Source: a virus
Lineage: Monodnaviria > Loebvirae > Hofneiviricota > Faserviricetes > Tubulavirales > Inoviridae
Virus record (IMG/VR): IMGVR_UViG_2529292720_000001
Reading direction: 5' to 3' (one strand)
DNA: 12,088 nucleotides
Below, in pieces: positions 1 to 11,822 of the stretch. Positions within the stretch are counted from its first letter, which is position 1; each line of letters starts with the position of its first letter. The position numbers and the translations under genes are program-made. The notes beneath the pieces are model-generated. The model saw nothing but the letters and a program-made list of their open reading frames with translations, searched no databases and had not been told where the DNA came from.

Positions 1-1455
1 TTATTGATTCGACTCATATGCACTCCATTCATCGCATACATGGGAAAAGGTTGATTTCAGGGCTTCGTTATCAATCACAATTCGCTGAAGATTGGCCGTA
101 TTAGCCTGCTGAGATAGAAATCTTTTAGCGTAAAGATCAGGCATATGGCTATTGTGACTCCAACCGCCAAGTAGCCGTAATTCATCCTTGGCTTCATCCA
201 TCAATCCAACGATAGAAAAGTCTATGGCTGCCAAGTGTGAGTTGGCCTTAATTTTTTGAAGTTTATCACGATAAATACGTTGAAGTGTTAAATAAGCCCA
301 AGTATGCCGCGTTATATGAGGCGAGATGCTTTCAATGGCATCATAATATTCATCTTTTTTATATTCAGGATACTGCACACTCATAATGTCATCAATACGG
401 GTAAAGATATCATAGACTGCATGGTATGACAGTGGCGGATGTAGTCTTTGGGTGGAAGTGAACAGAAAACTATGGGAGGCTTGAGGGCGGATTTTATGGA
501 TATATATATTTAGAAAATGAAAGTCCAGTTTATCTAATGCCAGCACCCGGTTTGCATAAACATTTTTTAATGAAGGCAATCTTTTTCGTTGATCCGAAAC
601 GTCGTCATCTACTGTGGTCACAATCAGGCTGAACTGATCCCCTCGGAGATTTGGTTTGATCGAATGACACTCCAAAAGCAGTAATTCACTGACACGCAAT
701 CCGTAATTTAAAAGCAATCTGCAAATCAGAAAATTACGTAGCTGGATTTCACCAGCGGGGAAGGGATTGAGTGGGTTTTTCTTTGAAATTGAACCGGGTG
801 TAATGATTTGGTAAAAAGCCATGACCATCTCAGCAGTCAGACTTCGAAAGCGTTTATGGGTCGTGCCATTGTTCATCTGACGAGAATGGGTAAGAGTACG
901 GAATTCTGCCTTATGTATCGATAAACGTCCCGTTAACTGCGTGGCAAGTCGTGTAAGCTCTTTAGGCGTGCCATCTATATATCTCGGCGAGATATACGTG
1001 TTAATCAAATATCTGATAAAACGAATAACCGAATGTACATGCCTGATATTTGTACAACGTTGAGGCGTGGTCTGCGTAGTAGACCTTATGGTTAACGCTG
1101 GTACATATAAATGCGTATTTTCCAGATAATGAAAAAAGGCTGTAAGTTCATCAATGGCAATCAATGGATTGTGGTTCGAGGAATAGAAACTGAAGCAAAA
1201 AGTCACACCATGTTTCTGGTGCCAGAATTCATAGAAAAACTTGAGCGCTTGAAGTGAAGCGGATTGCGTGGCTGATGAACGCAAAGCAAGATGGTCGATA
1301 AGATATATTAACGGATATAAAAGCGGCTGGCGCGTGTGAGTATCCATCAGTGCCCATAAACGCTGCCGTTGGTTGATATTGAGTTGTGTAAGTATGAACA
1401 CGCGGCACTTAACCTTATCAATGGTGTGGATATGAACAAAGTAACCGACAAACAT
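1..1455 (-). CDS. tyrosine recombinase / phage-type integrase (large, ~484-488 aa), start uncertain
   Basis: Long minus-strand ORF ending with TAA at 1-3. The translation carries the tyrosine-recombinase catalytic signature in canonical order: box I Arg (NYGLRVSELLLL), box II H-x-x-R-H (SPHITRHTWAY), then LGGWSHNSHMPDLYAKRF with the putative nucleophile Tyr. The ORF-track start at 1467 is a TTG; the first ATG is at 1453-1455 with GCAGGA 4 nt upstream; another in-frame ATG lies at 1345-1347. The gene lies outside the dif-bounded prophage. Confidence 0.7.
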   Translation of the reverse strand: MFVGYFVHIHTIDKVKCRVFILTQLNINQRQRLWALMDTHTRQPLLYPLIYLIDHLALRSSATQSASLQALKFFYEFWHQKHGVTFCFSFYSSNHNPLIAIDELTAFFHYLENTHLYVPALTIRSTTQTTPQRCTNIRHVHSVIRFIRYLINTYISPRYIDGTPKELTRLATQLTGRLSIHKAEFRTLTHSRQMNNGTTHKRFRSLTAEMVMAFYQIITPGSISKKNPLNPFPAGEIQLRNFLICRLLLNYGLRVSELLLLECHSIKPNLRGDQFSLIVTTVDDDVSDQRKRLPSLKNVYANRVLALDKLDFHFLNIYIHKIRPQASHSFLFTSTQRLHPPLSYHAVYDIFTRIDDIMSVQYPEYKKDEYYDAIESISPHITRHTWAYLTLQRIYRDKLQKIKANSHLAAIDFSIVGLMDEAKDELRLLGGWSHNSHMPDLYAKRFLSQQANTANLQRIVIDNEALKSTFSHVCDEWSAYESNQ

Positions 1456-1546
1456 AACGTCCTGCAAGAAGAAGATAGAGGGGTAGGTAAGTGTATGATT
1501 AATCGTATCCTGTGGCCGGTTATGAACTAAATGACCGACGGACTAA

Positions 1547-1574
1547 ATTTAACATAATATACATTATGCGCACC
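1547..1574 (-). other. dif: chromosomal dif site (XerC/XerD recombination site), exact 28-bp consensus
   Basis: The plus strand reads ATTTAACATAATATACATTATGCGCACC; its reverse complement is GGTGCGCATAA-TGTATA-TTATGTTAAAT, i.e. XerC arm, 6-bp central region and XerD arm of E. coli dif as I recall it, with no mismatch. Confidence 0.9.
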
Positions 1575-1785
1575 AATGGTAAGGATGGCAGAAACTGGTT
1601 GGAATCGTTGACACTGGGCGTCGACTGGTTACTATCGGCAATGATTCAAAATCATCCGTTTCTCCAAACGAATCAGAATCGAATGTCTGTCAACAGTAAG
1701 TGAACAAGCCTAACCTCATGACCTCACCAATCAGGCCTGTTCATCATCGTTACTAAGCAATGAATTACAGAAGGCATGAGCATTT

Positions 1786-2031
1786 ATGGACTTATCATAT
1801 CTAGCTGAAATGACGATATCAGAGGAAACACAGTTCTTGACTGTTTTTGAGCAGCAACTAGAACATGATGTCGGTGAAGCAGCCCGAGCCTGTCTTCTTC
1901 GTGGCGTCCCTATTTATTACGCTGAAAAAAATACGCCAGAAGGATGTGTCATTAAAGAGTATCCCGATGGTCGCAAGAAGCTGGTTAGTTTTATGACTGG
2001 CACTGAAAAAGTAGTTAAGATTAAAGTCTGA
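1786..2031 (+). CDS. hypothetical small acidic protein (81 aa)
   Basis: ORF-track ORF with ATG start. The Shine-Dalgarno is weak (AAGG about 11 nt upstream). The protein has no TM segment and no motif I recognise. It lies just inside the left att end of the prophage, convergent with the 82-aa ORF. Confidence 0.35.
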   Translation: MDLSYLAEMTISEETQFLTVFEQQLEHDVGEAARACLLRGVPIYYAEKNTPEGCVIKEYPDGRKKLVSFMTGTEKVVKIKV

Positions 2032-2181
2032 TACTTCCCTAGCCGCGCCGCAATTAACTCCAAAGAAAAATAGAGTACTGTTGCGGCTTGGCCAACGCCA
2101 GACAGCAACAAAAACAAGTTTTGTTACTGCCCGGCGTTTACGATAATTCCGTCAGCATGGAGTTTTAGCGGCTAAAAATGT

Positions 2182-2430
2182 TCACCACCACCATGCAAAC
2201 GGCTTGTTGCTGACCGGAAATGCGATGCCGTCAGCGTCACGACCACGTACAACCTGATTGAGAAGCTTTCTGACTTCACGGCGCTCTGGCCGGGTCATCA
2301 TCATATTGCGATACCAGGACGGCGATTTATCAAACCATCTGGCACAACTGGCAAAATGTGAACCTACACGACGATAAGACTTAAGGCGGCCACTGGGAAG
2401 TCGGTCACGCGCCTTATTTTTTACAGACAT
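2182..2430 (-). CDS. hypothetical small basic protein (82 aa, Arg/Lys-rich, C-terminal WWW)
   Basis: Minus-strand ORF with a good SD (AGAGGA, 6-nt spacer, ATG at 2430), located 88 nt downstream of the secretin gene in the same orientation. It is strongly basic (many R/K), consistent with a nucleic-acid-binding protein. Local GC looks higher than the rest of the prophage (eyeball estimate about 52%). Confidence 0.5.
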   Translation of the reverse strand: MSVKNKARDRLPSGRLKSYRRVGSHFASCARWFDKSPSWYRNMMMTRPERREVRKLLNQVVRGRDADGIAFPVSNKPFAWWW

Positions 2431-2518
2431 AATAAATCCTCTAAGTAACTGAATACCTAGAAGATGTCGTACTGTTCATACCCCATTAAAGTTAACGCCA
2501 TAATAAAAATCCATACAA

Positions 2519-3763
2519 TCAGTTCAGGTTGTCCCGGAACAGTTCACCGCTCCTCGCGGCGCTGCGGGGCGTCGCCCTGCTCCGGTCAACCTTTCTGACC
2601 TGAAGCATCACCATAATATCAGTCTTGTTGCTTTCACTGGTACGGGAACCGAAGACGCTCCAGCCGGAACTGGCCTTACTGTCTTTCTGTTCAGCAAGGC
2701 CACCAAGCAAAATAATATCACCATCTGCAAGGCTGACTTCGGTTGTTACATCACGCTTGATAAGGGTTGGCGAGTTATTGACGCCGGTTTCAGTGGTCAC
2801 AAAGTTGGAAAGCTGCTGCTGAATCTTGAGATCCATTGTCCGACTTTTGATTGATGGCGTCACGTTAAATAAAACACCGCTGGAACGATATTCAACGGAT
2901 TGCGTGGTCGTATTGTTATTCACCGTAACACTGCCCAGTACTGGCACATCAGAGCCGACTGAAAAAGACGCTGAGGCATTATTTTTTACCCGTAGTCGTG
3001 GCGCACTGACAACAGTAAAACGACTGTCGGTTTTCAGCAGATTGAAAATGGCATCAATGGAGCCGGTTCGAATATTGATAAAATTATCCAGTCCGGCAGC
3101 ACCTACTGAAATATTGAATTTATCAGACAAGATTTTAGCCGCTAAAAGAATACCGGAGCCGTCAGACTGCGAGGTCTGAACCTCAAAAACATAACCAGAA
3201 ACAACCACTTCATCACTCATCGTATCCAGCGAAGTGACCAGTGTTTTCAGGATGGCGATGTCCTCTTTCGTACCATAATAAACCAGAATATCACCGGTTC
3301 GATTGATGTAGTTGCTTGCCCCTGATGAACCTTTTAGCGAATCGTCAGAAATCACGGCTCCACTGTTATTGAAGGAGCCTGAAACGTAGCCGCCAAGAAT
3401 ATCAGACAGGTAGGCAACAGAACGGTACTGAGGCGTATAAGTCCATGTATAACGTGGCTTAACCGGCTCTTTCGGCGTATAGGGCGCGATAAAATCAACA
3501 CCCTTTTTCGTCCATATTCGAATGTTCATATTGCCAAGATAACGGGTTACAAATTCCCGTTCATCAATATCAGGTGTTAACCTGAATGTAATCATTCGTT
3601 CATCATTAACAAGCTGTGGATCTAGCATATACGGGACTTTAAGCACCTCACTATAAATAAGAGAAATAGCCTCCGGTAGCTTGACTTTATTTAATTCAAG
3701 CTCTGACCCTGCGAAAGCACATGAAGAAAATAGTAGCGTTAATGCGAGTAAAATCTTTTTCAT
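2519..3763 (-). CDS. filamentous phage pIV-like secretin (outer membrane export channel)
   Basis: 414 aa with an N-terminal signal peptide (MKKILLALTLLFSSCAFAG). The C-terminal half has the secretin-domain character (VVSAPRLRVKNNASASFSVGSDVPV...GGLAEQKDSK). Its ATG overlaps the stop of the upstream Zot-like gene (TAATG at 3761-3765), and it occupies the last position of the morphogenesis operon as gene IV does in Ff phages. Confidence 0.85.
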   Translation of the reverse strand: MKKILLALTLLFSSCAFAGSELELNKVKLPEAISLIYSEVLKVPYMLDPQLVNDERMITFRLTPDIDEREFVTRYLGNMNIRIWTKKGVDFIAPYTPKEPVKPRYTWTYTPQYRSVAYLSDILGGYVSGSFNNSGAVISDDSLKGSSGASNYINRTGDILVYYGTKEDIAILKTLVTSLDTMSDEVVVSGYVFEVQTSQSDGSGILLAAKILSDKFNISVGAAGLDNFINIRTGSIDAIFNLLKTDSRFTVVSAPRLRVKNNASASFSVGSDVPVLGSVTVNNNTTTQSVEYRSSGVLFNVTPSIKSRTMDLKIQQQLSNFVTTETGVNNSPTLIKRDVTTEVSLADGDIILLGGLAEQKDSKASSGWSVFGSRTSESNKTDIMVMLQVRKVDRSRATPRSAARSGELFRDNLN

Positions 3764-4788
3764 TATTTTTTCCCCGTATAAAGCGTCACACGCTCACCAT
3801 CAATAATTCCGCTCATCAACATCCCTTTATAATTAAAACTGGATGCAGGAACGGCACGCAAAACACCGGCACCGTTAACAAGAATCACAAACGCCCTGCC
3901 TTCACTGGTCATTCTCCCTGATATACGCCACTCGGTTGAAAGTGACGGTTCAGCTGGTTCTGAGGGAGTATCTGGTGCAGGAGTAGCAGCGGAAGAACGA
4001 AACATGGCCGCATCACGTACATCTGTTGTAGCCAAATCTGGCGAGGGATCGCTTCGGCCAAACGTGCTGAAAAATGAGTAAATCAGCCAGCCTGACCCGA
4101 TAAACATCAATGGAAAAAGCACAAGAAAGAACCTGACTTTGCCAGAATTCCAGATGCTCTGGCGTTTATCTGTCTGCTTTTCATTACCGTTATTTCCTTC
4201 ATAGCTTTTATAAAGTTCAAAAATATCAGGGTTATATTTATTGCGATAACTGGTGACGAGGTTGCTTTTATAGATTTTGTGGCCTGAATATACGTCAATG
4301 CAGTAATGATTATTCAGGCCCAACGCTTTCAGCTTGCGCATCCGGTAAGTTGTTTCTATTTTGTCTTTCAGAAAGCGAGCAATATTAGAAAGTGACTGAT
4401 TTACAATAACCAAATCACAGCTAATACCCGTTTCAGGGTGCGTAAAATGACGATGTTCAGCAATAAATGATTTCTTCTCAGCCGTCATATCCTTATCGCT
4501 ACCGAAGATTCGCCATGCTTCATCAATAACAATTAAATCACCAAACTGGCAAAAGCTCCCTTCCCCACCTTTAAAAGGAAAGAAATCTGCTTTAAGTACA
4601 TCATCATTATCCACAACAATAATTTCTCCCGTTGCATCAGGATAACGTTCGGTGATTTTATCTTTTTGTAAACCATAAATGTTCGTCACAACTCTCCGGC
4701 CGCTGGTAAATGCAGGAATAATGACATTGCAAACGGCTTCATAACTTTTTCCTGAGCCGGGTATGCCAATATATGCAGAAATAGCCAT
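3763..4788 (-). CDS. Zot-like / pI-like phage assembly ATPase
   Basis: 341 aa with an N-terminal Walker A motif (MAISAYIGIPGSGKSYEAV), comparable to the M13 pI N-terminus (GKLGSGKT), and a Walker B-like LIVIDEAW. A central TM segment (FFLVLFPLMFIGSGWLIYSFF) is followed by a Pro/Ser/Thr-rich C-terminal region. It sits between the pVI-like gene and the secretin gene. Confidence 0.9.
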   Translation of the reverse strand: MAISAYIGIPGSGKSYEAVCNVIIPAFTSGRRVVTNIYGLQKDKITERYPDATGEIIVVDNDDVLKADFFPFKGGEGSFCQFGDLIVIDEAWRIFGSDKDMTAEKKSFIAEHRHFTHPETGISCDLVIVNQSLSNIARFLKDKIETTYRMRKLKALGLNNHYCIDVYSGHKIYKSNLVTSYRNKYNPDIFELYKSYEGNNGNEKQTDKRQSIWNSGKVRFFLVLFPLMFIGSGWLIYSFFSTFGRSDPSPDLATTDVRDAAMFRSSAATPAPDTPSEPAEPSLSTEWRISGRMTSEGRAFVILVNGAGVLRAVPASSFNYKGMLMSGIIDGERVTLYTGKK

Positions 4789-4791
4789 AAC

Positions 4792-5079
4792 TCACCCTAT
4801 AACAGGAATACGTCGAATAATAAAACGAGTAGCCATTGAGGAGATAATCATACTAATCCCCTGTGGTAATTTACTCAGGTTAATGAAGTACCAGAATCCG
4901 TCTGATAAATTGGCAAACAGCGATGAGAGATTGCTTGAATCTGGCAGTAACTCAACAAGGATTTCAACGAAGCCCTGGACTACAAAATACAGCGCAAAGA
5001 ATACGAAGAATTTAATAATCAATGACCGGAATACAAAACCTAACAAAGTATTTAATGCACTAATCAGAATCCCAAACAT
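4792..5079 (-). CDS. pVI-like minor coat protein (small hydrophobic virion protein)
   Basis: 95 aa, very hydrophobic with multiple TM-like segments, placed between the pIII-like gene and the pI gene with 3-nt and 12-nt gaps. This position and size class match gene VI of Ff phages. Confidence 0.6.
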   Translation of the reverse strand: MFGILISALNTLLGFVFRSLIIKFFVFFALYFVVQGFVEILVELLPDSSNLSSLFANLSDGFWYFINLSKLPQGISMIISSMATRFIIRRIPVIG

Positions 5080-5091
5080 AGTTGCACTCCT

Positions 5092-6804
5092 TTAGGCACT
5101 CAGAATAATACGGAGCGCAACAAATCCCCATATAATCAGAAATATGGTTTCTACGGCGCTTCTGTTCTGCTCAATTAACGGACAATGGGAGTCAATTCTG
5201 TACTGGTGATTAAACACGCTGAATTCAACAACGGGGCAGGATGCTGAACGAGAGCCGATGTTAAATTCGTTTGTAAAAGGCAACAAGTTAATAATTGGCG
5301 TTAAAATATCTCTTGCCGTTGGCGTTTCTTCAAGCTCAGGCTCTTTTACACCGGGATCTTCTCCCAAATCTATATTGCCATTATTTCCAGTGTCAGATCC
5401 TGAGTTGTTATTAATGGTAATATCAATATTGACGTCAGCCCCTGCACTGTCAGATACAGGTGAAAGCATATCTAATAACGTTGGAGATAGCCTAAGTTCC
5501 GACATCGCAGAAGTTACTTCAGCCGGTGAAACCTCTTTAAACGGTAAGCCGTTATAATCGGCATTAACGGCAGCTTCAGACCACAGCTCGTTAATCATGT
5601 CGGCAAGAAGTGCTGGCGATACACTAACACTATCAAGATACTCCAGATAATCAATCATGGACTCAATATTTCCGGCCTCCAGTACTTCCGTCATGGCTTT
5701 ATATTTGGTATTGGTCCAGATAGTAAGCTCACTCTTTTCATCAATATCTTTTGCGGTGTAATCCTCTTTTTCAGGAACGGCGCAAATCGTCGAATATCCA
5801 CCATTTGACTGATTAGTCGTTTTACAAGGCGTGTTGTGATACTGATATTGCTTTCCTGCTGTTAAATAAGCAACGCTGTAATACATGGGAAGCCCTGCTA
5901 CATTTTCATACATGGGAATACCTGCGGGAAATGAAGATGCGGCCGGGTTGCTATACAAGTGTGTAATCTCAGGTATTTCATAAAATGAGGAAGGATAAGT
6001 AAACTTATAATTCTGTTCAGTAAAGGATACATCTCCATTACTGTTGACAACTTTATTCGTCACAGTGCGTTCAAAATTCGTTAGTGTTTCAGTATAAGTA
6101 CGCGAGTTATAGTCATTAAGATAATTTCTGGCAATTTCAGTTGGATTATCACCATAGTAATAAATTAGCTCTTTCGAATCCTGATAATAATAAAGCGCAT
6201 TATCTGGCGTGGAATATCCTGTTTCAACACCTACAACTGGAGAACCCGCATCCACATTATTACGACTAACATGAAGGATTACCGGACTTAATTCCTGTGG
6301 TTCAAAATTAACGGTTATCGTCTTACTTTCACCACTTTGACCACTGTACGTTACTTCATATAAATTATCGGAAATCTTTTTACCGTTAGTCATTACCATT
6401 ACCGAGCCGTCAGATGAACTCAAAGAAGACGGAACAAAAGATGATACAGCAGCAGCAATACCCGCCCACGTTGCAACACCGCTCATTTTGTATGATGAGG
6501 CAGCAGGCAAGTATTCGGCAGCATTAGCCGCAGCGCGGCCAACAAAAACACGGGTTGCTGTAAGCTGTGATGCCGTATAAATCGCATCATTGGCAGCAAA
6601 GCGACGAACAAGCACCCGGCCAACGACTTTAGGAATAACAGCCCGCGCAGCCACTGCTGCAATTGCTGGTACAAATGAATATGAATATCGGGGAAAGGAA
6701 ACCCAGAGAAAGGAAAAAATAAAGGAATAAACCGTCAGCCTCTTAGCCCAAGAATAACGACATAAGCTGAGACGATCCCCCATAAAAGGGAACCCAATTT
6801 CCAT
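5092..6804 (-). CDS. pIII-like adsorption / minor coat protein (start uncertain)
   Basis: 570-aa ORF directly after the major coat gene and its terminator. It has a Gly/Asn/Ser/Asp-rich linker (NNNSGSDTGNNGNIDLGEDPG) and a C-terminal hydrophobic anchor (AVETIFLIIWGFVALRIILSA), as pIII has. There is an SD (GGAG, 8-nt spacer) before the ATG at 6804. The first ~110 aa are Ala/Val-rich and atypical, so the true start or N-terminal domain organisation is uncertain. Confidence 0.7.
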   Translation of the reverse strand: MEIGFPFMGDRLSLCRYSWAKRLTVYSFIFSFLWVSFPRYSYSFVPAIAAVAARAVIPKVVGRVLVRRFAANDAIYTASQLTATRVFVGRAAANAAEYLPAASSYKMSGVATWAGIAAAVSSFVPSSLSSSDGSVMVMTNGKKISDNLYEVTYSGQSGESKTITVNFEPQELSPVILHVSRNNVDAGSPVVGVETGYSTPDNALYYYQDSKELIYYYGDNPTEIARNYLNDYNSRTYTETLTNFERTVTNKVVNSNGDVSFTEQNYKFTYPSSFYEIPEITHLYSNPAASSFPAGIPMYENVAGLPMYYSVAYLTAGKQYQYHNTPCKTTNQSNGGYSTICAVPEKEDYTAKDIDEKSELTIWTNTKYKAMTEVLEAGNIESMIDYLEYLDSVSVSPALLADMINELWSEAAVNADYNGLPFKEVSPAEVTSAMSELRLSPTLLDMLSPVSDSAGADVNIDITINNNSGSDTGNNGNIDLGEDPGVKEPELEETPTARDILTPIINLLPFTNEFNIGSRSASCPVVEFSVFNHQYRIDSHCPLIEQNRSAVETIFLIIWGFVALRIILSA

Positions 6805-6827
6805 AATTCAATCTCCATAATAACCTC

Positions 6828-6855
6828 AAGTAAAACGGGCGATATTGCATCGCCC
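6828..6855 (-). terminator. intrinsic terminator after the major coat protein gene
   Basis: On the minus strand a 7-bp GC-rich stem (GGGCGAT/ATCGCCC, plus 6837-6855) with a 5-nt loop is followed by GUUUUA. It lies 14 nt downstream of the coat gene stop, analogous to the terminator after gene VIII in Ff phages. Confidence 0.55.
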
Positions 6856-6868
6856 ATGAATAATGAAT

Positions 6869-7102
6869 TTATGCGGATTTAACGGTACGCAATACCCAGC
6901 GAACGCCAGCGACACCGGCATAAAGTGTTACCAGTGAAGCAGCAACGGCCATAATCGCAACCAGAACTGTACTGAAATCAATGCTGTTCGTCAGCGGCGA
7001 TAAATCAACACCACTTGATGCCGCTCCTTCTGCAGCGAAAGTCGCGCCAGAAACAGCCATTAATGCAGGTACAGCCAGAAAACTAACGATTTTTTTAAAC
7101 AT
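6869..7102 (-). CDS. major coat protein (pVIII-like)
   Basis: 77 aa. Signal peptide MFKKIVSFLAVPALMAVSGATFA with an A-x-A cleavage site; the predicted mature protein begins AEGAASSG (M13 mature pVIII begins AEGDDP). It has an amphipathic N-terminus, a hydrophobic helix and a basic C-terminus (RWVLRTVKSA). SD is GGAG with an 8-nt spacer. Confidence 0.85.
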   Translation of the reverse strand: MFKKIVSFLAVPALMAVSGATFAAEGAASSGVDLSPLTNSIDFSTVLVAIMAVAASLVTLYAGVAGVRWVLRTVKSA

Positions 7103-7136
7103 AACTCTATCTCCATTACATTTTAAAGGTTCGCAT

Positions 7137-7388
7137 TCAAGCAGTACGAACCATCTTTATTACCTGTCCCACACCTACAGAAAAAAGCCAGAGCAGCAGG
7201 ACAGAGCCAAAACCTAATGTCCAGTAATTTCCTATTGCAGAATAATCAATTTGATGAAATGGTTCAGAACGTACCATTATTGCCTGACATTCTTTTGCAT
7301 TGTTCGCATTACATAAATAACCTTCAATACGGTAACCATTTTCAGGAATATGATTATCAAACTGAATATCGAAACCTGATGTATCCAT
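7137..7388 (-). CDS. small membrane protein in the pVII/pIX position (possible minor coat protein)
   Basis: 83-aa ORF tightly packed between the ssb-like and major coat genes (2-nt gap upstream), with a C-terminal hydrophobic segment (WTLGFGSVLLLWLFSVGVGQVI). It is larger than Ff pVII/pIX, and an internal Met start is possible. Confidence 0.45.
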   Translation of the reverse strand: MDTSGFDIQFDNHIPENGYRIEGYLCNANNAKECQAIMVRSEPFHQIDYSAIGNYWTLGFGSVLLLWLFSVGVGQVIKMVRTA

Positions 7389-7390
7389 AA

Positions 7391-7708
7391 TCAGCCTTTT
7401 ATTTCAGTAATGCCGCCATCTGATGAAATGTTATAAGTTACTCCTTCCCTCCCCTCCATTGACCAGACGCGAACATATACAGGTATCTGGACTAACTTAC
7501 CGATAAAATTATTTGCCTGATTCATTACACCGGCATTAACAAGAGCCTGAGATACACGAATAATAATCTGGTCTTGCTTAGTGCCACCAAAACCATCAGG
7601 AATCTCTAAGCCAACACCAATTTCATTATAGTATCCCTGACCATTGACCTTATTACGCTGGCGAGCACCAAGCATTTTACCTTTTACAAAAAGACCATAA
7701 TTAGACAT
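7391..7708 (-). CDS. ssDNA-binding protein (pV-like), putative
   Basis: 105-aa ORF immediately downstream of rep with a strong SD (AAGGAGAG, ATG at 7708). Position and size fit gene V; no sequence motif I can name with certainty. Confidence 0.5.
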   Translation of the reverse strand: MSNYGLFVKGKMLGARQRNKVNGQGYYNEIGVGLEIPDGFGGTKQDQIIIRVSQALVNAGVMNQANNFIGKLVQIPVYVRVWSMEGREGVTYNISSDGGITEIKG

Positions 7709-7719
7709 ATCACTCTCCT

Positions 7720-8772
7720 TTAATGCCAGTTACTGGCATGTGAAATACGGTTATAATCGAAAATTAAACCTTTCTCATAAACCCATGATGGAATTTTGGC
7801 TGGTTTGGCTTCAAGAGTACGAACCAACGGAACAACGTTATTAGAATCCGGTGACTCACAATAAAAGTTAATATCTATTCCGAAAGAAAGTAATTCTTTA
7901 CGGTGTCGGTAGAATGTAGGTTTCGGTAACATCTCTTTCATGTTCGCGCCCTGCTTCCACAATAAATATGTAGACTGTATTTTTCTTGGGAGATTAATTA
8001 TTTTTTCATCAGTTAATATGGTATTTTGATTCATTTCTATTCTCCCTACATAGTCAGAGAATAATTTATTGGGCGTCTCAATATTCCAGCTATTACCAAG
8101 CGTAAGATTCAAATCAATTAATTCAGTTGTTCTTAATGTTAATTCAATGCGTAATTTATCTTTTGACCAGTCCAGTAAACCAGCTTTAACGAATTCGTCT
8201 GCCATCTGGTGCCCTTTTTTGCCAGATGTATGCTCATCATATTTTGAATAAAATTTCAGGCTCCAACGACGGGAGTTTTTCCCTAAGTAAACAGTGCCAC
8301 CTTTACCACAGGCGCGACCGTGGCGAGTTTTAGCTTTAAATTCTGCGGCATATAGCCATGCGCGGACATTTTCTAATGTTGACAATGAATACATATAGTT
8401 GATATCAATACGCGAGATCTTAAATTGCCCTGCCATTACCTGTCGATAGGATGAAAGATCATGAGGAATATGCAGTAATGCCAATATTCTGGCATAAGCT
8501 GTTAATACTAACCCTTGCAAATCATCGGAACCGATAACAGAGTGACCTTGCAAAAACTTTGACGGATTGCCGTCAATATAGAGATGTGTTGCCCGACCTT
8601 CGCCATCAGATCCAACAGATCTTACTTTCATAGTGGATTCATACGAACCGCGAACAGTCAACCGTTTTACTGTTTCCCACTCCACTGCACCGTCAGCATC
8701 AACGCTGACGACACTACCAGCCGGTAATGGTCGGTGTATGCAAGGTAGGATCCCGGTAAACCAGTCAATCAT
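7720..8772 (-). CDS. rolling-circle replication initiation protein (pII / RstA-like, phage CRI family)
   Basis: 350 aa with the N-terminal MIDWFTG motif typical of filamentous-phage replication initiators. SD is GAGG with a 6-nt spacer. It is the first gene of the minus-strand operon and is divergent from the HTH repressor, as rstA/rstR are in CTXphi-like phages. Confidence 0.8.
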   Translation of the reverse strand: MIDWFTGILPCIHRPLPAGSVVSVDADGAVEWETVKRLTVRGSYESTMKVRSVGSDGEGRATHLYIDGNPSKFLQGHSVIGSDDLQGLVLTAYARILALLHIPHDLSSYRQVMAGQFKISRIDINYMYSLSTLENVRAWLYAAEFKAKTRHGRACGKGGTVYLGKNSRRWSLKFYSKYDEHTSGKKGHQMADEFVKAGLLDWSKDKLRIELTLRTTELIDLNLTLGNSWNIETPNKLFSDYVGRIEMNQNTILTDEKIINLPRKIQSTYLLWKQGANMKEMLPKPTFYRHRKELLSFGIDINFYCESPDSNNVVPLVRTLEAKPAKIPSWVYEKGLIFDYNRISHASNWH

Positions 8773-8939
8773 GTATCGCCTCAGAGAACAATTTTGTGAC
8801 CAGAAAGCCTGTCAAGAGCTTATTAGTACCAATTCAGTCACACAAATGTACAACCCAAGATCTTACCTCTCAAGTGATTTTGTACTGGATAAGTGACATA
8901 TTTGTTCTTTTGAAATGGAGCAAAAAAGTAGGATATAGA
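8773..8939. promoter_or_regulatory. divergent control region between rep and repressor (candidate promoters/operators, possibly replication origin)
   Basis: 167-bp intergenic region. On the minus strand there is a perfect -35 hexamer TTGACA (plus 8810-8815), about 40 nt upstream of the rep ATG, with only a weak -10 candidate. GTGAC/GTCAC half-sites recur (TGTGAC at 8795-8800, GTCACA at 8837-8842, GTGACA at 8893-8898), and TTTGT(G/A)AC-like motifs recur at about 8792, 8846 and 8878. Confidence 0.45.
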
Positions 8940-9392
8940 ATGAGCAACAACTTCAACAGTAATGGCTACCCGGAAGAAATGGCAGAAGACATAGACTTAC
9001 AGCGGGCAGAAAGGATAAAAAAAGCGATCCTAAGCAAATTCACATACGAAAGGATGGAAGAACTGTCTGGCATCAACATTGGCACACTGAAACGGATCGC
9101 AAACGCACAGAGGGATGCGAAAATCAGTGAGCTGGAAAAAATTGCTGAAATCACTCAGACAGACATATTTGAACTGATTTTTGGCTCCAGTAGCAGTGAT
9201 ATCTACGATTCCAGCAAACGCTTCTTTGAGACGAGAAGTAAAGATGCGGCTCAGGCGGCTCAATTCATCATCTACAATCTTCGTACCCTTGATGATGAGG
9301 ACATCCTTTGTTTGGGGAGGGTTTCGAGTGCCTTGCAAACAGCAACAACATCAAGAAAATGGGATGAGCTTTTCGGGAAGAAGAAAGGCTGA
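8940..9392 (+). CDS. XRE-family helix-turn-helix transcriptional regulator (phage repressor candidate)
   Basis: ATG at 8940 preceded by AGGA (6-7 nt spacer); the ORF-track start at 8796 is an unsupported upstream extension. 150 aa with a predicted HTH (MEELSGINIGTLKRIANAQRDAKISELEKIAEITQTDIFEL). Divergent from rep. Confidence 0.75.
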   Translation: MSNNFNSNGYPEEMAEDIDLQRAERIKKAILSKFTYERMEELSGINIGTLKRIANAQRDAKISELEKIAEITQTDIFELIFGSSSSDIYDSSKRFFETRSKDAAQAAQFIIYNLRTLDDEDILCLGRVSSALQTATTSRKWDELFGKKKG

Positions 9393-9438
9393 GTCTCAGA
9401 AATGAGACAAACGTGCAGTATTACCAACACTGCACGTT
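9393..9438 (+). repeat. two adjacent stem-loops right after the repressor stop (6-bp GTCTCA/TGAGAC hairpin, then a perfect 10-bp inverted repeat AACGTGCAGT-N9-ACTGCACGTT)
   Basis: Read directly from the sequence (9393-9408 and 9410-9438). No immediate U-tract follows; ATTTTT lies about 13 nt downstream. It could be a terminator or attenuator, or a phage cis element. Confidence 0.5.
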
Positions 9439-9476
9439 CTGGATTGAGCGATTTTTAAACACCAGAAAAAGGGTAA

Positions 9477-9875
9477 ATGATGAACAAAACAGTGTATGTA
9501 CCAAGCTACTTCCAGCCTATCTACAAAGAAGTAACCATCAAAGTTCCTACCGGAAACACAAAACGATTCCTGGGTCTCATCGACATTGAAGAAAAAATCC
9601 GAAAAAGAGAAGTTATTCAGGATGGCTGGTCTGATTGCCAGATTGACGGGGAAAGACTCAATGAAGATGTTGGTCGAGCCATTAATAAACTTAATCGGGA
9701 AGGGTATGAGGTTATTTCAATAACCCCTGCTACCTCAGGAAGCTGGGCTTATAAATATAAACAAAACAGTATTCGTAATGGAAACGGTGATGGCAGTTAT
9801 GGATATGGTTACGGTTATTCATACACCGAAGGCGTTATGATTCTGGCAAAGAAAATTGAGAAAGAGGACGTCTGA
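9477..9875 (+). CDS. hypothetical soluble protein (131-132 aa) with a Gly/Tyr-rich low-complexity insert; first gene of the accessory operon
   Basis: ORF with tandem ATGs at 9477 and 9480; AAGGG lies 3 and 6 nt upstream, so 9480 is the more likely start. It contains NGNGDGSYGYGYGYSYTEG. The 60-nt sample counted just downstream (9878-9937, start of the next gene) is about 33% GC. The stop is 2 nt before the next gene start. Confidence 0.6.
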   Translation: MMNKTVYVPSYFQPIYKEVTIKVPTGNTKRFLGLIDIEEKIRKREVIQDGWSDCQIDGERLNEDVGRAINKLNREGYEVISITPATSGSWAYKYKQNSIRNGNGDGSYGYGYGYSYTEGVMILAKKIEKEDV

Positions 9876-9877
9876 TA

Positions 9878-10240
9878 ATGGATTTTATCCGTAAAACTTT
9901 GGGTGGATTAAAAGCAAGTTATTATATCCGTCACTTCGTTTTTGGTGCATTAATTTCAACTTTCTTTATTTACATGTCAATGCAAAATCCTGGAGGGGTG
10001 AAGGTTGAAAATATAATTTTCTTTTTTATCAATGCGTTACTCTACCCTTACGCAAGGTTTGTATATGAGCAAATCATTGGGTTCATCATGGGTGAAAATG
10101 TCTTTTTCATCAACGTCATAGTGATGCTAACTGCCAAGATAATTACGATGTGTTTATGCTGGATATTTTCAGTATTCATAGCGCCAGTTGGACTGATATA
10201 TCTCTACTATTATCATTCAAAAGCTGATAAACAATTATAG
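9878..10240 (+). CDS. hypothetical small integral membrane protein (120 aa, 3-4 predicted TM helices)
   Basis: Translationally coupled to the upstream ORF (TGATAATG). Hydrophobic stretches: IRHFVFGALISTFFIYMSM, NIIFFFINALLYPYARFVY, VFFINVIVMLTAKIITMCLCWIFSVFIAPVGLIYLYYY. AT-rich. Confidence 0.6.
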   Translation: MDFIRKTLGGLKASYYIRHFVFGALISTFFIYMSMQNPGGVKVENIIFFFINALLYPYARFVYEQIIGFIMGENVFFINVIVMLTAKIITMCLCWIFSVFIAPVGLIYLYYYHSKADKQL

Positions 10241-10251
10241 AGGAAAATAAT

Positions 10252-10320
10252 ATGAGCATGGAAACAGGGGTTGCTATTATTATCTTGCTTGTGATTGTTG
10301 GTAAACTTATAGGACTTTAA
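10252..10320 (+). CDS. candidate 22-aa hydrophobic micropeptide (MSMETGVAIIILLVIVGKLIGL), not in the ORF track
   Basis: ATG at 10252 preceded by AGGAAA with a 7-nt spacer, starting 12 nt after the stop of the membrane-protein gene. It encodes a single TM helix and has a TAA stop at 10318-10320. The bidirectional terminator follows about 40 nt downstream. Confidence 0.35.
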   Translation: MSMETGVAIIILLVIVGKLIGL

Positions 10321-10353
10321 CATAAAACTGGTTCGCACAATGACGTTATGTGT

Positions 10354-10394
10354 AAAAAGGCCGCTGCGGGAGACATTTTAGCAGCGACCTTTTC
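10354..10394. terminator. bidirectional intrinsic terminator between the prophage plus-strand operon and hipA
   Basis: 9-bp stem GGCCGCTGC / GCAGCGACC (10359-10367 and 10381-10389) with a 13-nt loop. On the minus-strand RNA every position pairs (one G-U wobble) and UUUUU follows (plus AAAAA at 10354-10358). On the plus-strand RNA there is one C-A mismatch, followed by UUUU (10390-10393). Confidence 0.6.
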
Positions 10395-10395
10395 A

Positions 10396-10423
10396 ACATA
10401 ACGAGTCGTACATTATGCGCACC
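10396..10423 (-). other. hybrid dif-like site (prophage-chromosome junction; XerC arm intact, central region and XerD side phage-derived)
   Basis: The minus strand reads GGTGCGCATAA-TGTACGACTCGTTATGT. The XerC arm is identical to dif and the central region shares its first 4 bp, but the XerD arm is replaced. A XerD-arm-like TTATGTTGAAA (8/11 match to TTATGTTAAAT) is displaced by 5 bp, giving an ~11-bp spacer. Confidence 0.8.
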
Positions 10424-10499
10424 AGTGTAAACCAAGGAAGAATCCAGTCGTTGGCGGTCATGATTGTCGTGCTCATTAACAACGACCAAACCCCATATC

Positions 10500-11822
10500 T
10501 CACTTACTACCGTATTCTCGGCTTAACCGTCCATGCAACCTCAACACATTGGTTTCAACTGCCGTCACCACGTTCTCCGGAAAATCTGTCGGTAATGAAG
10601 TCTTCACGTTATCCAGTGCTGCCGGAATCATTCTGGCAAAGTCACTTAGGATTTCATGCATCTGCACTTCCGGGAATCTCAGCACCTTTGCTGTCGCCAA
10701 AAAATGTCGCGGATAAATTTTATCGATTGCCGTTTTTTTGCCTTTGGATGCGTTAAGCCCCATTGCCAGTTTGAGATCGCTGATGTGTATTCCCGTACCG
10801 CCAAGGACCGGAAATGCTGAAATGATGTCGTAAAATGGCGTGAGTCGATAACTGCCGCCAGCCTGAATAAATACGGAGAAGTTTTTTGCATGGCCATCCG
10901 TTGCGCCAATCAACCACTGGAAGACCTGGAATTTCATAAAATCATAACGATCGCGAAGCGCCTCGCTGGACCCCATCAAAAACGCCATGATCCGCGCGAT
11001 GCCTGGGCCTCCATCTGATTCATATTTCACAGATGAAGGTAAACCGAATGTCTGACACATATCCTCCTGTGGCAAGCGAAGTAAAACCGTTCGCTCAGTA
11101 TTCCAACGCCTGTCAAAACGTTCGACCGCTAACGCGCGCACCCTTCCCGCTTTAATGATTTCTGCGTCCGGAACATTCAACCCAAGTTCTTTCGCCAGCA
11201 GCAGACAGTAATACTCATTATCAACGCTTTGGCTGAGATCGAGCGTCGCATTGGGCTGCCTGATTTCGCCAATCGGTAATTTAATGATGTGCGTCGTCGG
11301 CGTTATTCCTTTCGGAATGCACCAGTCATTGCCTATTCTAAGCAGCGCTGTCTTCTCCTGCGCGCCAGCAACCGAGATGCGAAAGTCATTTTCTTCTCTA
11401 ATCATGCCCAGAGGGATATCTGCTTTATAAGCCGTTAATACTTCTTCAAGCCTGGCTTCAGTAAGCTTTTCCCATGCCATTATCGGGCGCGTTATGGTTT
11501 CATTTTCGGGTAATAACGTTACGGCACCAACGCTGTCTCGCCCTATTTCTGACAATAAATCAAACGGTTGTCTGGATTTAGCATGATAACGTTTAACGAT
11601 CCGGTCACGTACAATCGGGCTATCGGGTAACAGGTTATCGAAGAAGTTAAATACGGCATCTGAGGTGATATTCCCCCTCTGCAATGGCAGCGAAAGTGAC
11701 AACGGTCTGGCATAACGGCTGGCTAACCACTCCGGTGCATACTTAAAGGTGTGCGCGCCGTTGGCTAACTTCGTTAACTCGCCTACCCGCTGGTTGTTCA
11801 TCCAAGTGACAAGTTTAGGCAT
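10500..11822 (-). CDS. hipA: serine/threonine kinase toxin HipA
   Basis: The translation from the ATG at 11820-11822 (MPKLVTWMNNQRVGELTKLANGAHTFKYAPEW...REYGSK, 440 aa) matches E. coli HipA as I recall it. The 459-aa ORF-track version is an in-frame upstream extension into hipB. The hipB stop and hipA start overlap (TAATG). Confidence 0.95.
   Translation of the reverse strand: MPKLVTWMNNQRVGELTKLANGAHTFKYAPEWLASRYARPLSLSLPLQRGNITSDAVFNFFDNLLPDSPIVRDRIVKRYHAKSRQPFDLLSEIGRDSVGAVTLLPENETITRPIMAWEKLTEARLEEVLTAYKADIPLGMIREENDFRISVAGAQEKTALLRIGNDWCIPKGITPTTHIIKLPIGEIRQPNATLDLSQSVDNEYYCLLLAKELGLNVPDAEIIKAGRVRALAVERFDRRWNTERTVLLRLPQEDMCQTFGLPSSVKYESDGGPGIARIMAFLMGSSEALRDRYDFMKFQVFQWLIGATDGHAKNFSVFIQAGGSYRLTPFYDIISAFPVLGGTGIHISDLKLAMGLNASKGKKTAIDKIYPRHFLATAKVLRFPEVQMHEILSDFARMIPAALDNVKTSLPTDFPENVVTAVETNVLRLHGRLSREYGSK

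What the first reader, a model, noticed from the sequence alone, without database searches (positions are those of the whole stretch)
9477..10394. AT-rich three-gene cargo operon at the att-proximal end of the prophage: soluble GY-repeat protein + multi-pass membrane protein + 22-aa micropeptide
Seen in sequence: three tightly coupled plus-strand ORFs (9477-9875, 9878-10240, 10252-10320), each with its own SD, ending at a terminator that abuts the prophage att site. A 60-nt sample (9878-9937) is about 33% GC. None has a motif of the core inovirus replication or morphogenesis proteins. The first protein carries a short Gly/Tyr repeat (GYGYGYSY); the second has 3-4 TM helices; the third is a single TM helix. 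Established knowledge: dif-integrating filamentous phages carry accessory cargo near attP (ctxAB in CTXphi). Inference: this could be a membrane-acting module such as superinfection exclusion, abortive infection, a toxin/immunity pair or a host-interaction factor. It may correspond to accessory genes of known CUS-1/Ypf-like prophages, which I cannot verify.
Basis: partly seen in the sequence, partly recalled or inferred. Interest (0 to 1): 0.7.

Follow-up and report, generated by a model that had tools for sequence, protein, structure and literature searches.

The report
Filamentous prophage cargo with colicin-immunity-like gene
The three small genes at the end of this E. coli filamentous prophage are real, conserved cargo, but they are three independently mobile genes rather than one system, and the middle one is a distant relative of the membrane protein that protects cells from the pore-forming toxin colicin E1.

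Summary
Three coupled plus-strand ORFs are present: A 9477-9875, B 9878-10240, C 10252-10320. Each has a Shine-Dalgarno site, and they lie in a 34-35% GC stretch at the hipA-side end of a CUS-1/Ypf-type inovirus prophage integrated at dif.

- **Cargo slot.** The genes sit between a conserved origin-like hairpin (9409-9439) and attP. Related phages carry unrelated genes in this slot.
- **Not one unit.**
  - Only 2 of 80 genomes carrying B have A next to it.
  - A also occurs alone or with other partners.
  - C follows B only in inoviruses.
- **B.** It is a remote homologue of the colicin E1 immunity protein (hhalign probability 94.5%, E 7e-8; shuffled controls score far lower). No toxin gene is linked to it anywhere. 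I read it as an orphan immunity gene that protects the lysogen from a pore-forming toxin (confidence about 0.45).
- **A.** It defines a stand-alone family with a nearly invariant GYGYSYTEG motif (preceded by a less conserved GY) and no informative fold match. Its function is unknown.
- **C.** It is a conserved single-helix micropeptide.

I rate this a new variant of a known kind, of moderate interest.

The parts
8940..9392 (+). Phage repressor (RstR/YPO2273-like HTH protein). It is co-directional with the cargo and is probably the source of cargo transcription in the lysogen.
   Evidence: phrog_3557 transcriptional regulator E 1.4e-68; weak HTH_3. RefSeq 'transcriptional regulator'. No sigma-70 consensus promoter lies between it and A.
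9409..9439 (.). Conserved hairpin (10-13 bp stem, loop ATTACCAAC) forming the left boundary of the cargo slot. It is probably the phage (+)-strand origin or nick site.
   Evidence: Inverted repeat I1. Identical in phages with other cargo. The 9401-9472 block is matched in many E. coli genomes. Tandem-duplication junctions in strain 90-9280 fall inside its loop.
9477..9875 (+). Gene A: a 132-aa soluble, beta-rich protein. It is a stand-alone family with a nearly invariant C-terminal strand GYGYSYTEG and a weak DUF4177-like core.
   Evidence: phrog_15841, unknown function. dN/dS 0.05-0.11. No informative fold match.
9878..10240 (+). Gene B: a 120-aa inner-membrane protein with 3-4 helices. It is a remote homologue of the colicin E1 immunity protein (E1-type pore-forming colicin immunity).
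   Evidence: dN/dS 0.08-0.16.
10252..10320 (+). Gene C: an unannotated 22-aa single-helix micropeptide with a strong Shine-Dalgarno site (GAGGA).
   Evidence: The ORF and its hydrophobic sequence are conserved in E. coli, Photorhabdus, Brenneria and Xenorhabdus inovirus loci, with synonymous changes.
10330..10357 (+). First dif-like site of attP (GGTTCGCACAA-TGACGT-TATGTGTAAAA), 10 nt after the C stop codon.
   Evidence: Read from the sequence. Conserved in all cargo variants. Pairs with 10390-10423 in the ssDNA fold.
10359..10389 (.). GC-rich apical stem-loop.
   Evidence: Compensated stem in related phages (GGCCGCTGC/GCAGCGGCC, GCCGCCTGC/GCATGCGGC).
10390..10423 (-). Second, inverted dif-like site, which is the hybrid prophage/chromosome junction. 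It carries the XerC-arm sequence GGTGCGCATAATGT.
   Evidence: repeat I2.
1547..1574 (-). Intact chromosomal dif site at the other end of the prophage.
   Evidence: 28/28 match to GGTGCGCATAATGTATATTATGTTAAAT.

Best explanation
The stretch between the phage's origin-like hairpin (9409-9439) and its attP (10330-10423) is a cassette slot of CUS-1/Ypf-type, XerCD-dependent filamentous phages. Different phage isolates carry different small genes there. The slot points the same way as the repressor gene and away from the replication and assembly genes. Its genes are therefore probably expressed in the lysogen, as lambda rexAB are with cI (inferred, not shown).

In this variant the slot holds three genes that travel independently elsewhere.

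Gene B is the interpretable one. It is a diverged member of the colicin E1-type immunity superfamily. Established knowledge of E1-type immunity proteins says they sit in the inner membrane and block the toxin's channel through helix-helix contacts inside the bilayer. I infer that B does the same for an incoming pore-forming toxin: a colicin-like bacteriocin, or a contact-dependent or secreted ionophore toxin. That makes it an 'orphan' immunity gene, so the prophage converts its host to toxin immunity. The cognate toxin is unknown.

Gene A is a cytoplasmic, beta-rich protein of a separate family found on mobile elements and in defence islands. Gene C is a one-helix membrane peptide that accompanies B only in inoviruses. 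Neither has an assignable mechanism. They may modulate B or act independently.
For: Cassette slot:
- Left and right boundaries are identical while the contents differ among UTI89, ERP001, strain 82.0311 and this window.
- The variants occur in 14, 10 and 3 of 5426 E. coli genomes, while the phage backbone occurs in about 150.
- The literature already notes unrelated ORF pairs at this position in Ypf and CUS-1 (PMC4266046).

B is homologous to the colicin E1 immunity protein (Cei):
- 20 and 16 of 112 family members give weak Pfam hits to Colicin-K immunity and Colicin E1 immunity respectively.
- Profile versus Cei of plasmid ColE1 (sequence): hhalign probability 94.5-94.6%, E 7e-8, covering Cei residues 2-108.
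- The B-family HMM hits Cei at E 4e-7.
- Pairwise BLASTP gives E 2e-5.
- Controls: the real score is 47.1, against a maximum of 23.2 for 60 shuffles, 17.7 for 60 hydropathy-preserving shuffles, 13.4 for the reversed sequence, and 17.7 or less for unrelated membrane proteins.
- Shared motifs are YYI[KR]..FG, PY[AS][KR][FY]..E and C....(A/I)(I/A)P.GL.
- Size and helix layout are similar.

B has an orphan, mobile lifestyle typical of orphan immunity genes:
- 169 genome loci were found. In the 80 kept, neighbours are unrelated.
- It occurs on 77 plasmids, 35 of them conjugative, and as a moron in a Pseudomonas siphophage.
- In Variovorax it sits downstream of a CdiA/ShlB cluster.

All three genes evolve as coding sequence; dN/dS is low for A and B, and the evidence for C is weaker.
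Against: - No pore-forming colicin domain or any recurrent toxin gene lies next to B in the window or in any of 80 genomes. A bona fide immunity family would be expected to be toxin-linked in at least some genomes.
- B does not reach the Pfam gathering score of either immunity family.
- The loop between helices 2 and 3 is hydrophobic in B but charged in Cei.
- B is about 50% identical from E. coli to Campylobacter and Pseudomonas. That is unusually conserved for an immunity protein, which normally diversifies with its toxin, and it could indicate a conserved host target instead.
- A and B are translationally coupled in every enterobacterial copy and in one distant metagenome contig. This hints at a functional link that this explanation does not account for.
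- Expression in the lysogen was not shown.
Confidence: 0.45

Rival explanations
1. B is a superinfection- or entry-exclusion factor. As an inner-membrane protein carried by elements that enter through the envelope (inoviruses, conjugative plasmids, temperate phages), it would block entry of a second filamentous phage, a plasmid or phage DNA. It could do this by binding incoming coat or pilot-protein helices or a conserved host entry component such as TolQRA. The immunity-protein fold would have been re-used for this purpose.
For: - B is carried by inoviruses, by 35 conjugative plasmids (inside the transfer region of PromA plasmids, between the primase gene and traQ) and by a siphophage moron slot.
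- Its high conservation across phyla fits a conserved host target.
- No toxin partner was found anywhere.
- Ypf lysogens are partly protected against superinfection (PMC4266046).
Against: - Most B genes lie alone among housekeeping genes in chromosomes, not on recognisable mobile elements.
- The Ypf review attributes superinfection protection to the repressor, and Ypf carries other genes in this slot.
- The only characterised relatives are toxin immunity proteins.
Confidence: 0.2
2. A and B (with or without C) form one new two- or three-component system, for example an anti-phage defence. In it, the soluble protein A would sense or bind something and act through the membrane protein B.
For: - The 2-nt spacing or 4-nt overlap between A and B is kept in all enterobacterial copies at 75-100% identity, and in a distant contig where both proteins have diverged (L110: A 134 bits, B 98 bits).
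- A alone lies in mobile-element or defence-island settings: next to Thoeris and HEPN genes in Aeromonas, an Mks/toxin-antitoxin island in Vreelandella, integrase islands in Pantoea and Castellaniella, and an ICE-like region in Elizabethkingia.
- One A homologue is fused to a C-terminal membrane domain (P0381).
Against: - Only 2 of 80 B loci have A.
- A occurs without B in at least eight unrelated contexts, and with a different downstream partner in a sister inovirus.
- Neither protein hits PADLOC models.
Confidence: 0.15
3. B and C form a small membrane toxin-antidote pair. C would be a depolarising 22-aa peptide of the type I toxin kind, and B would neutralise it in the membrane, stabilising the prophage or aborting infection.
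For: - C is a very hydrophobic 22-25 aa peptide with a strong Shine-Dalgarno site. It is conserved next to B in four genera, including a Xenorhabdus locus that has B and C but not A.
- B's relatives neutralise membrane-inserted helices.
Against: - 76 of the 80 genome loci with B lack a C-like ORF.
- Sister phages have A+B followed by unrelated third genes.
- No Rfam family and no antisense-RNA signature was found in 9300-10500.
- dN/dS for C is as high as 0.73 in one comparison.
Confidence: 0.1

Closest known systems
Colicin E1 immunity protein (Cei/ImmE1) and the E1-type immunity group (Pfam PF03526 'Microcin', PF17500 'CKI')
   Same: Gene B shares significant profile-level homology over almost the full length, with three shared sequence motifs. 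Size is similar (120 vs 113 aa) and so is the layout of hydrophobic helices. Orphan copies of bacteriocin immunity genes are a known phenomenon (PMC5358913).
   Different: - B is only about 28-30% identical to Cei and scores below the Pfam gathering cut-offs.
- Its helix 2-3 loop is hydrophobic rather than charged.
- It is never linked to a colicin gene in the 80 loci examined.
- It is spread across Proteobacteria, with full-length relatives at 25-29% identity on Bacillus plasmids.
- It is carried by a filamentous phage rather than a Col plasmid.
Accessory ORFs downstream of the repressor in Ypf-phi (YPO2271/YPO2272) and CUS-1 (orf1/orf1a)
   Same: Same phage family, same slot between the repressor and the att site, and likewise of unknown function (PMC4266046). 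The CUS-1 cassette in UTI89 has boundaries identical to this window's.
   Different: The genes are different. UTI89 carries a 140-aa membrane protein and a 369-aa protein. I could not obtain the YPO2271/2272 sequences, so identity with the Ypf pair is untested. The exact A and B proteins are recorded from Y. enterocolitica, Salmonella, Pectobacterium, Enterobacter and Klebsiella.
ctxAB in CTX-phi and rexAB in lambda (cargo or moron genes of temperate phages)
   Same: The cargo is placed next to attP in a XerCD-dependent inovirus with a forked-hairpin attP, as in CTX-phi (PMC4266046). It is co-directional with the repressor, as rexAB are with cI.
   Different: There is no sequence relationship. 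No secreted toxin is encoded. Expression in the lysogen is inferred only.
DUF4177 (Pfam PF13783)
   Same: The central part of A (residues 49-88) gives weak DUF4177 hits in 23 of 112 family members. One homologue is named DUF4177 by UniRef.
   Different: A scores below the gathering threshold (16.7 vs 25 bits). It has two 20-residue beta-hairpins and the GYGYGYSYTEG strand, which the 65-residue DUF4177 domain does not span. DUF4177 itself is uncharacterised apart from one bacteriocin-like claim for a 66-aa clostridial protein (PMC11322243).

Membership tests
E1-type pore-forming colicin immunity proteins (PF03526 / PF17500) | Detectable sequence homology to characterised members | tested here: met
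   hhalign probability 94.5-94.6%, E 7e-8. HMM E 4e-7. Shuffle, reversed and unrelated-membrane-protein controls all score 23.2 or less against 47.1.
E1-type pore-forming colicin immunity proteins (PF03526 / PF17500) | Scores above the Pfam gathering threshold of the family model | tested here: not met
   The window protein gives no hit to either model. The best member E-values are 0.0029 (CKI) and 0.0031 (Microcin).
E1-type pore-forming colicin immunity proteins (PF03526 / PF17500) | Small inner-membrane protein with three transmembrane helices | tested here: inconclusive
   The AF2 model (pLDDT 83.5) has helices 13-35, 43-71, 80-96 and 98-119. Hydropathy gives 3-4 segments, against 3 in Cei. 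Topology was not determined.
E1-type pore-forming colicin immunity proteins (PF03526 / PF17500) | Encoded next to the gene of its cognate pore-forming colicin | tested here: not met
   There is no colicin-like gene in the window. None was found in 80 genome loci by clustering, by Pfam scan of neighbours, or by phmmer with the ColE1 pore domain.
E1-type pore-forming colicin immunity proteins (PF03526 / PF17500) | Confers specific protection against a pore-forming toxin | not testable with these tools
   This needs colicin, CDI or T6SS killing assays with B expressed in a sensitive strain.
CTX-type XerCD-dependent integrative inovirus (CUS-1/Ypf group) | Integrated at chromosomal dif, no phage integrase, inovirus core genes | tested here: met
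   dif at 1547-1574 and a hybrid site at 10410-10423. Between them lie Rep II/X, an ssDNA-binding protein, coat protein, Zot-like protein and secretin, with no integrase. hipA/hipB flank the prophage.
CTX-type XerCD-dependent integrative inovirus (CUS-1/Ypf group) | Two dif-like sites in inverted orientation that fold into a forked hairpin in ssDNA | tested here: met
   10330-10357 pairs with 10390-10423; dG -26.4 kcal/mol, z -5.9, 0 of 200 shuffles fold as well. The arrangement is conserved in relatives. It is described for Ypf in PMC4266046.
DUF4177 (PF13783), for gene A | Scores above the Pfam gathering threshold | tested here: not met
   16.7 bits against a cut-off of 25. 23 of 112 members give weak hits, best E 0.0036.
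Known anti-phage defence systems (PADLOC-DB 2.0) | Any of A, B or C matches a defence-system protein model | tested here: not met
   No family at E up to 1 for A, B or C.
Type I toxin-antitoxin (small hydrophobic toxin plus antisense RNA), for gene C | Known antisense or regulatory RNA family overlapping the peptide gene | tested here: not met
   No Rfam match at E up to 1 in 9300-10500. Toxicity is not testable here.

The most novel reading that the evidence does not exclude
B may represent a very large, unrecognised superfamily of MGE-borne three-helix membrane proteins. It spans Proteobacteria, with distant relatives on Bacillus plasmids, and the colicin E1/K immunity proteins would be only a small specialised branch of it. 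Its general role might not be colicin immunity. It could be protection of the inner membrane against a broad class of inserted helical hairpins, such as toxins, incoming phage or pilot proteins, or holins. In inoviruses it might work together with the GYGYGY protein A as a new two-component exclusion or defence system.
Probability: 0.15. Interest if true: 0.7.

Novelty: new variant of a known kind. Interest (0 to 1): 0.5.

Why it matters
The genes at the ends of Ypf/CUS-1-type prophages are the unexplained part of phages that modestly raise the fitness of Y. pestis and E. coli K1 in animals. The Ypf review names their function as the open question (PMC4266046).

Two things follow if one cassette carries a colicin-immunity-type gene. 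First, there is a concrete hypothesis to test: the prophage protects its host in bacterial warfare. Second, a filamentous phage that crosses genera could spread bacteriocin immunity. The exact proteins are recorded from E. coli, Yersinia, Salmonella, Pectobacterium, Enterobacter and Klebsiella. That matters for colicin- or pyocin-based therapeutics.

The work also gives a first annotation to a widespread 'hypothetical' membrane family (169 species loci, 77 plasmids). And it flags a 466-cluster family (A) with a nearly invariant motif and no known fold relative.

Tried and rejected
- **Family libraries.** Pfam, NCBIfam, PHROGs and PADLOC scans of the single proteins gave nothing above threshold.
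- **Solved structures by sequence.** PDB searches with both family profiles found nothing.
- **Phage records.** There is no DNA match and no match to A. B matches one Pseudomonas siphophage.
- **Conserved partner of B.** All-against-all clustering of neighbours, tblastx of 900 nt on each side, a Pfam census of 140 neighbouring proteins, and phmmer with the ColE1 pore domain found nothing recurrent.
- **Fusions of A.** Only a zinc ribbon and a C-terminal membrane tail turned up, which is uninformative.
- **A as toxin with B as its immunity.** Rejected, because A is found without B in many genomes.
- **Suspected second A-B pair.** A match suggested by equal contig length (P0098/P0194) proved to be coincidence.
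- **Literature.** The accession numbers appear in no held paper. Gonzalez et al. 2002 and the colicin review were not held.
Full report
**Setting.** The window is an E. coli chromosomal segment carrying a filamentous prophage of the CUS-1/Ypf type. An identical region in strain 90-9280 is annotated with the inovirus core genes: secretin, Zot-like protein, DUF2523 protein, coat and adsorption proteins, DNA-binding protein, Rep II/X and a regulator. hipA and hipB follow. A perfect dif site lies at 1547-1574 and a hybrid site with the XerC arm lies at 10410-10423. The prophage therefore spans about 1575-10409 and has no integrase.

**The observation.**
- ORFs A (9477-9875, 132 aa), B (9878-10240, 120 aa) and C (10252-10320, 22 aa) are present. 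They are tightly spaced and each is preceded by a Shine-Dalgarno-like motif.
- GC is 0.34-0.35 across B and C, against 0.40-0.52 nearby. Another prophage segment (7801-8250) is just as AT-rich.
- A and B evolve under strong purifying selection (dN/dS 0.05-0.16).
- C is retained as a hydrophobic ORF, with synonymous substitutions, in E. coli, Photorhabdus, Brenneria and Xenorhabdus.
- RefSeq calls A and B hypothetical proteins and does not annotate C.

**The 'terminator' is attP.**
- Ten bases after the C stop codon lies a dif-like site: GGTTCGCACAA-TGACGT-TATGTGTAAAA (10330-10357).
- It is followed by a GC stem-loop (10359-10389) and then an inverted dif-like site (10390-10423).
- As single-stranded DNA, the 109 nt fold into one long imperfect hairpin with an unpaired central region (dG -26.4 kcal/mol, z -5.9).
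- This architecture is conserved in every related phage examined. It is described for Ypf and CTX-phi (PMC4266046).
- The stem-loop could also stop transcription, but it is first of all the tip of attP.

**A cassette slot.**
- The left boundary is a conserved hairpin at 9409-9439. It is identical in phages that carry other cargo.
- In strain 90-9280 a 1.8-kb unit (5' part of the ssb gene, rep, repressor) is triplicated. Each junction falls in the loop of this hairpin. That is what aberrant rolling-circle termination at a nick site would produce, so I read the hairpin as the (+) origin.
- Between this hairpin and attP the content varies:

| Cargo | Where seen |
|---|---|
| A + B + C | this window; 14 of 5426 complete E. 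coli genomes |
| A + B + 114-aa protein | circular 8.5-kb viral contig; inovirus remnant on a Pantoea plasmid |
| A + B + roughly 70-aa membrane protein | L094 |
| A + 103-aa + 249-aa proteins | L093 |
| B + C without A | Xenorhabdus L013 |
| 140-aa membrane protein + 369-aa protein | UTI89, i.e. CUS-1; 10 genomes. The 140-aa gene alone is in 128 genomes |
| 140-aa + 110-aa proteins | 3 genomes |

- The Ypf review states that this slot holds unrelated ORF pairs of unknown function in Ypf and CUS-1.

**A and B are separate families.**
- B was found in 169 species genomes. Among the best 80 loci, only Photorhabdus and Brenneria have A next to it.
- B's neighbours are unrelated housekeeping or island genes, and B usually stands alone with its own intergenic spacers.
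- B is also on 77 plasmids, 35 of them conjugative. In PromA plasmids it lies inside the transfer region. It also occurs on Xylella and Xanthomonas plasmids, and full-length relatives at 25-29% identity occur on Bacillus plasmids. It sits in a moron position in a Pseudomonas siphophage.
- A has 466 clusters at 50% identity, almost all stand-alone proteins of 100-145 aa.
- A occurs without B in several settings:
  - an Mks/toxin-antitoxin island in Vreelandella;
  - next to HEPN and Thoeris genes in Aeromonas;
  - integrase islands in Pantoea and Castellaniella;
  - an ICE-like region in Elizabethkingia;
  - among housekeeping genes.
- Against full independence, A and B are translationally coupled in all enterobacterial copies. 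An overlapping A-B pair also exists in one distant metagenome contig where both proteins have diverged.

**What B is.**
- Scanning all 112 aligned family members against Pfam gave recurrent weak hits to Colicin-K immunity (20 members) and Colicin E1 immunity (16 members).
- I read the Cei sequence from plasmid ColE1 and compared it with B:
  - hhalign of the B profile against Cei gives probability 94.5%, E 7.9e-8, over Cei residues 2-108;
  - against a Cei family alignment it gives 94.6%;
  - the B HMM finds Cei at E 4e-7;
  - BLASTP of the two proteins gives E 2e-5.
- Controls exclude a composition artefact. The real score is 47.1. Sixty shuffles reach at most 23.2, sixty hydropathy-preserving shuffles at most 17.7, the reversed sequence 13.4, and unrelated small membrane proteins 17.7 or less.
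- The conserved blocks YYI[KR]..FG, PY[AS][KR][FY]..E and C....IAP.GL coincide with the nearly invariant columns of the B family.
- 'Colicin transporter', the odd name attached to a Xenorhabdus homologue of B, is a name NCBI gives to Cei homologues.
- B differs from Cei in three ways. It scores below Pfam thresholds, its helix 2-3 loop is hydrophobic, and it is never linked to a colicin gene.

**What A and C are.**
- The AF2 model of A (pLDDT 86) shows a small alpha/beta core with two very long beta-hairpins. The nearly invariant GYGYSYTEG (G111-G119) lies in the last strand.
- Weak DUF4177 hits are seen in 23 of 112 members. That family is itself uncharacterised.
- A has no signal peptide and no hydrophobic segment.
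- C is a single hydrophobic helix. No Rfam family overlaps it.

**Mechanism.**
- *Shown:* the slot architecture, the homology of B to Cei, and the independent distributions of the three genes.
- *From established knowledge:* E1-type immunity proteins block the colicin channel by intramembrane helix contacts.
- *Inferred:* B is an orphan immunity gene expressed with the repressor, protecting the lysogen from a pore-forming toxin of unknown identity.
- *Caveat:* no toxin is linked to any B gene in the 80 loci, and B is unusually conserved. These keep confidence near 0.45.
- *Rivals left open:* entry exclusion (0.2), a genuine A-B system (0.15), and a B-C toxin-antidote pair (0.1).

**Novelty.** The slot and its 'unknown ORFs' are already in the literature, and orphan bacteriocin immunity genes are a known concept. 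New here are the assignment of B to the E1-immunity superfamily, its breadth across mobile elements, its carriage by a broad-host-range filamentous phage, and the definition of the A family. I rate it a new variant of a known kind, with interest 0.5.

Noticed in passing
window 9395-9439 (and L001 7331-7365, 9162-9196): Two adjacent hairpins follow the repressor gene: GTCTCA-GAAA-TGAGAC, then AACGTGCAGT-ATTACCAAC-ACTGCACGTT. In strain 90-9280 a 1831-bp unit (5' part of the ssb gene, rep, repressor) is tandemly triplicated. Each junction lies in the loop of the second hairpin (GTATTACCA|TCAGG, with ACCA microhomology to window 7588-7591). This looks like the Rep nick site, i.e. the (+) origin, generating RS1-like satellite repeats.
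   Followed up: partly
window 1-1467 (- strand): Just outside the intact dif site lies a 488-aa ORF running off the window end. It has a weak Phage_integrase match (E 7.7e-5, below the gathering score) and an RHTW-type motif. It may belong to another integrative element beside dif.
   Followed up: partly
window 1786-2031 (+) and 2182-2430 (-): Two further small ORFs (81 and 82 aa) at the dif-proximal end of the prophage have no Pfam match. They occupy the second accessory slot described for Ypf (YPO2280a/YPO2281).
   Followed up: partly
L002 (strain 82.0311) and L003 (strain ERP001): The prophage is present as tandem or partial tandem copies, each with its own cargo cassette. This matches what is reported for Ypf and is required for CTX-type phage production.
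   Followed up: no
L105 4271-5910 (UTI89): The 140-aa multi-pass membrane protein that opens the CUS-1 cassette is in 128 E. coli genomes, but its 369-aa partner is in only 10. The second position of that cassette is therefore itself variable. None of these proteins has a Pfam match.
   Followed up: partly
L093 7850-8161 and L099 8387-8698: A 103-aa soluble protein (MxxNxYKxMSCEG...) directly follows gene A both in a sister inovirus and in a Pantoea vagans integrase island. This is a second recurrent partner of A, unrelated to B.
   Followed up: no
L005 1-8366 (Variovorax sp. Root318D1): A B homologue lies at the end of a string of small unannotated ORFs, downstream of a CdiA-like haemagglutinin gene and a ShlB/CdiB transporter gene. 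This is the only B context seen that suggests a contact-dependent toxin locus.
   Followed up: partly
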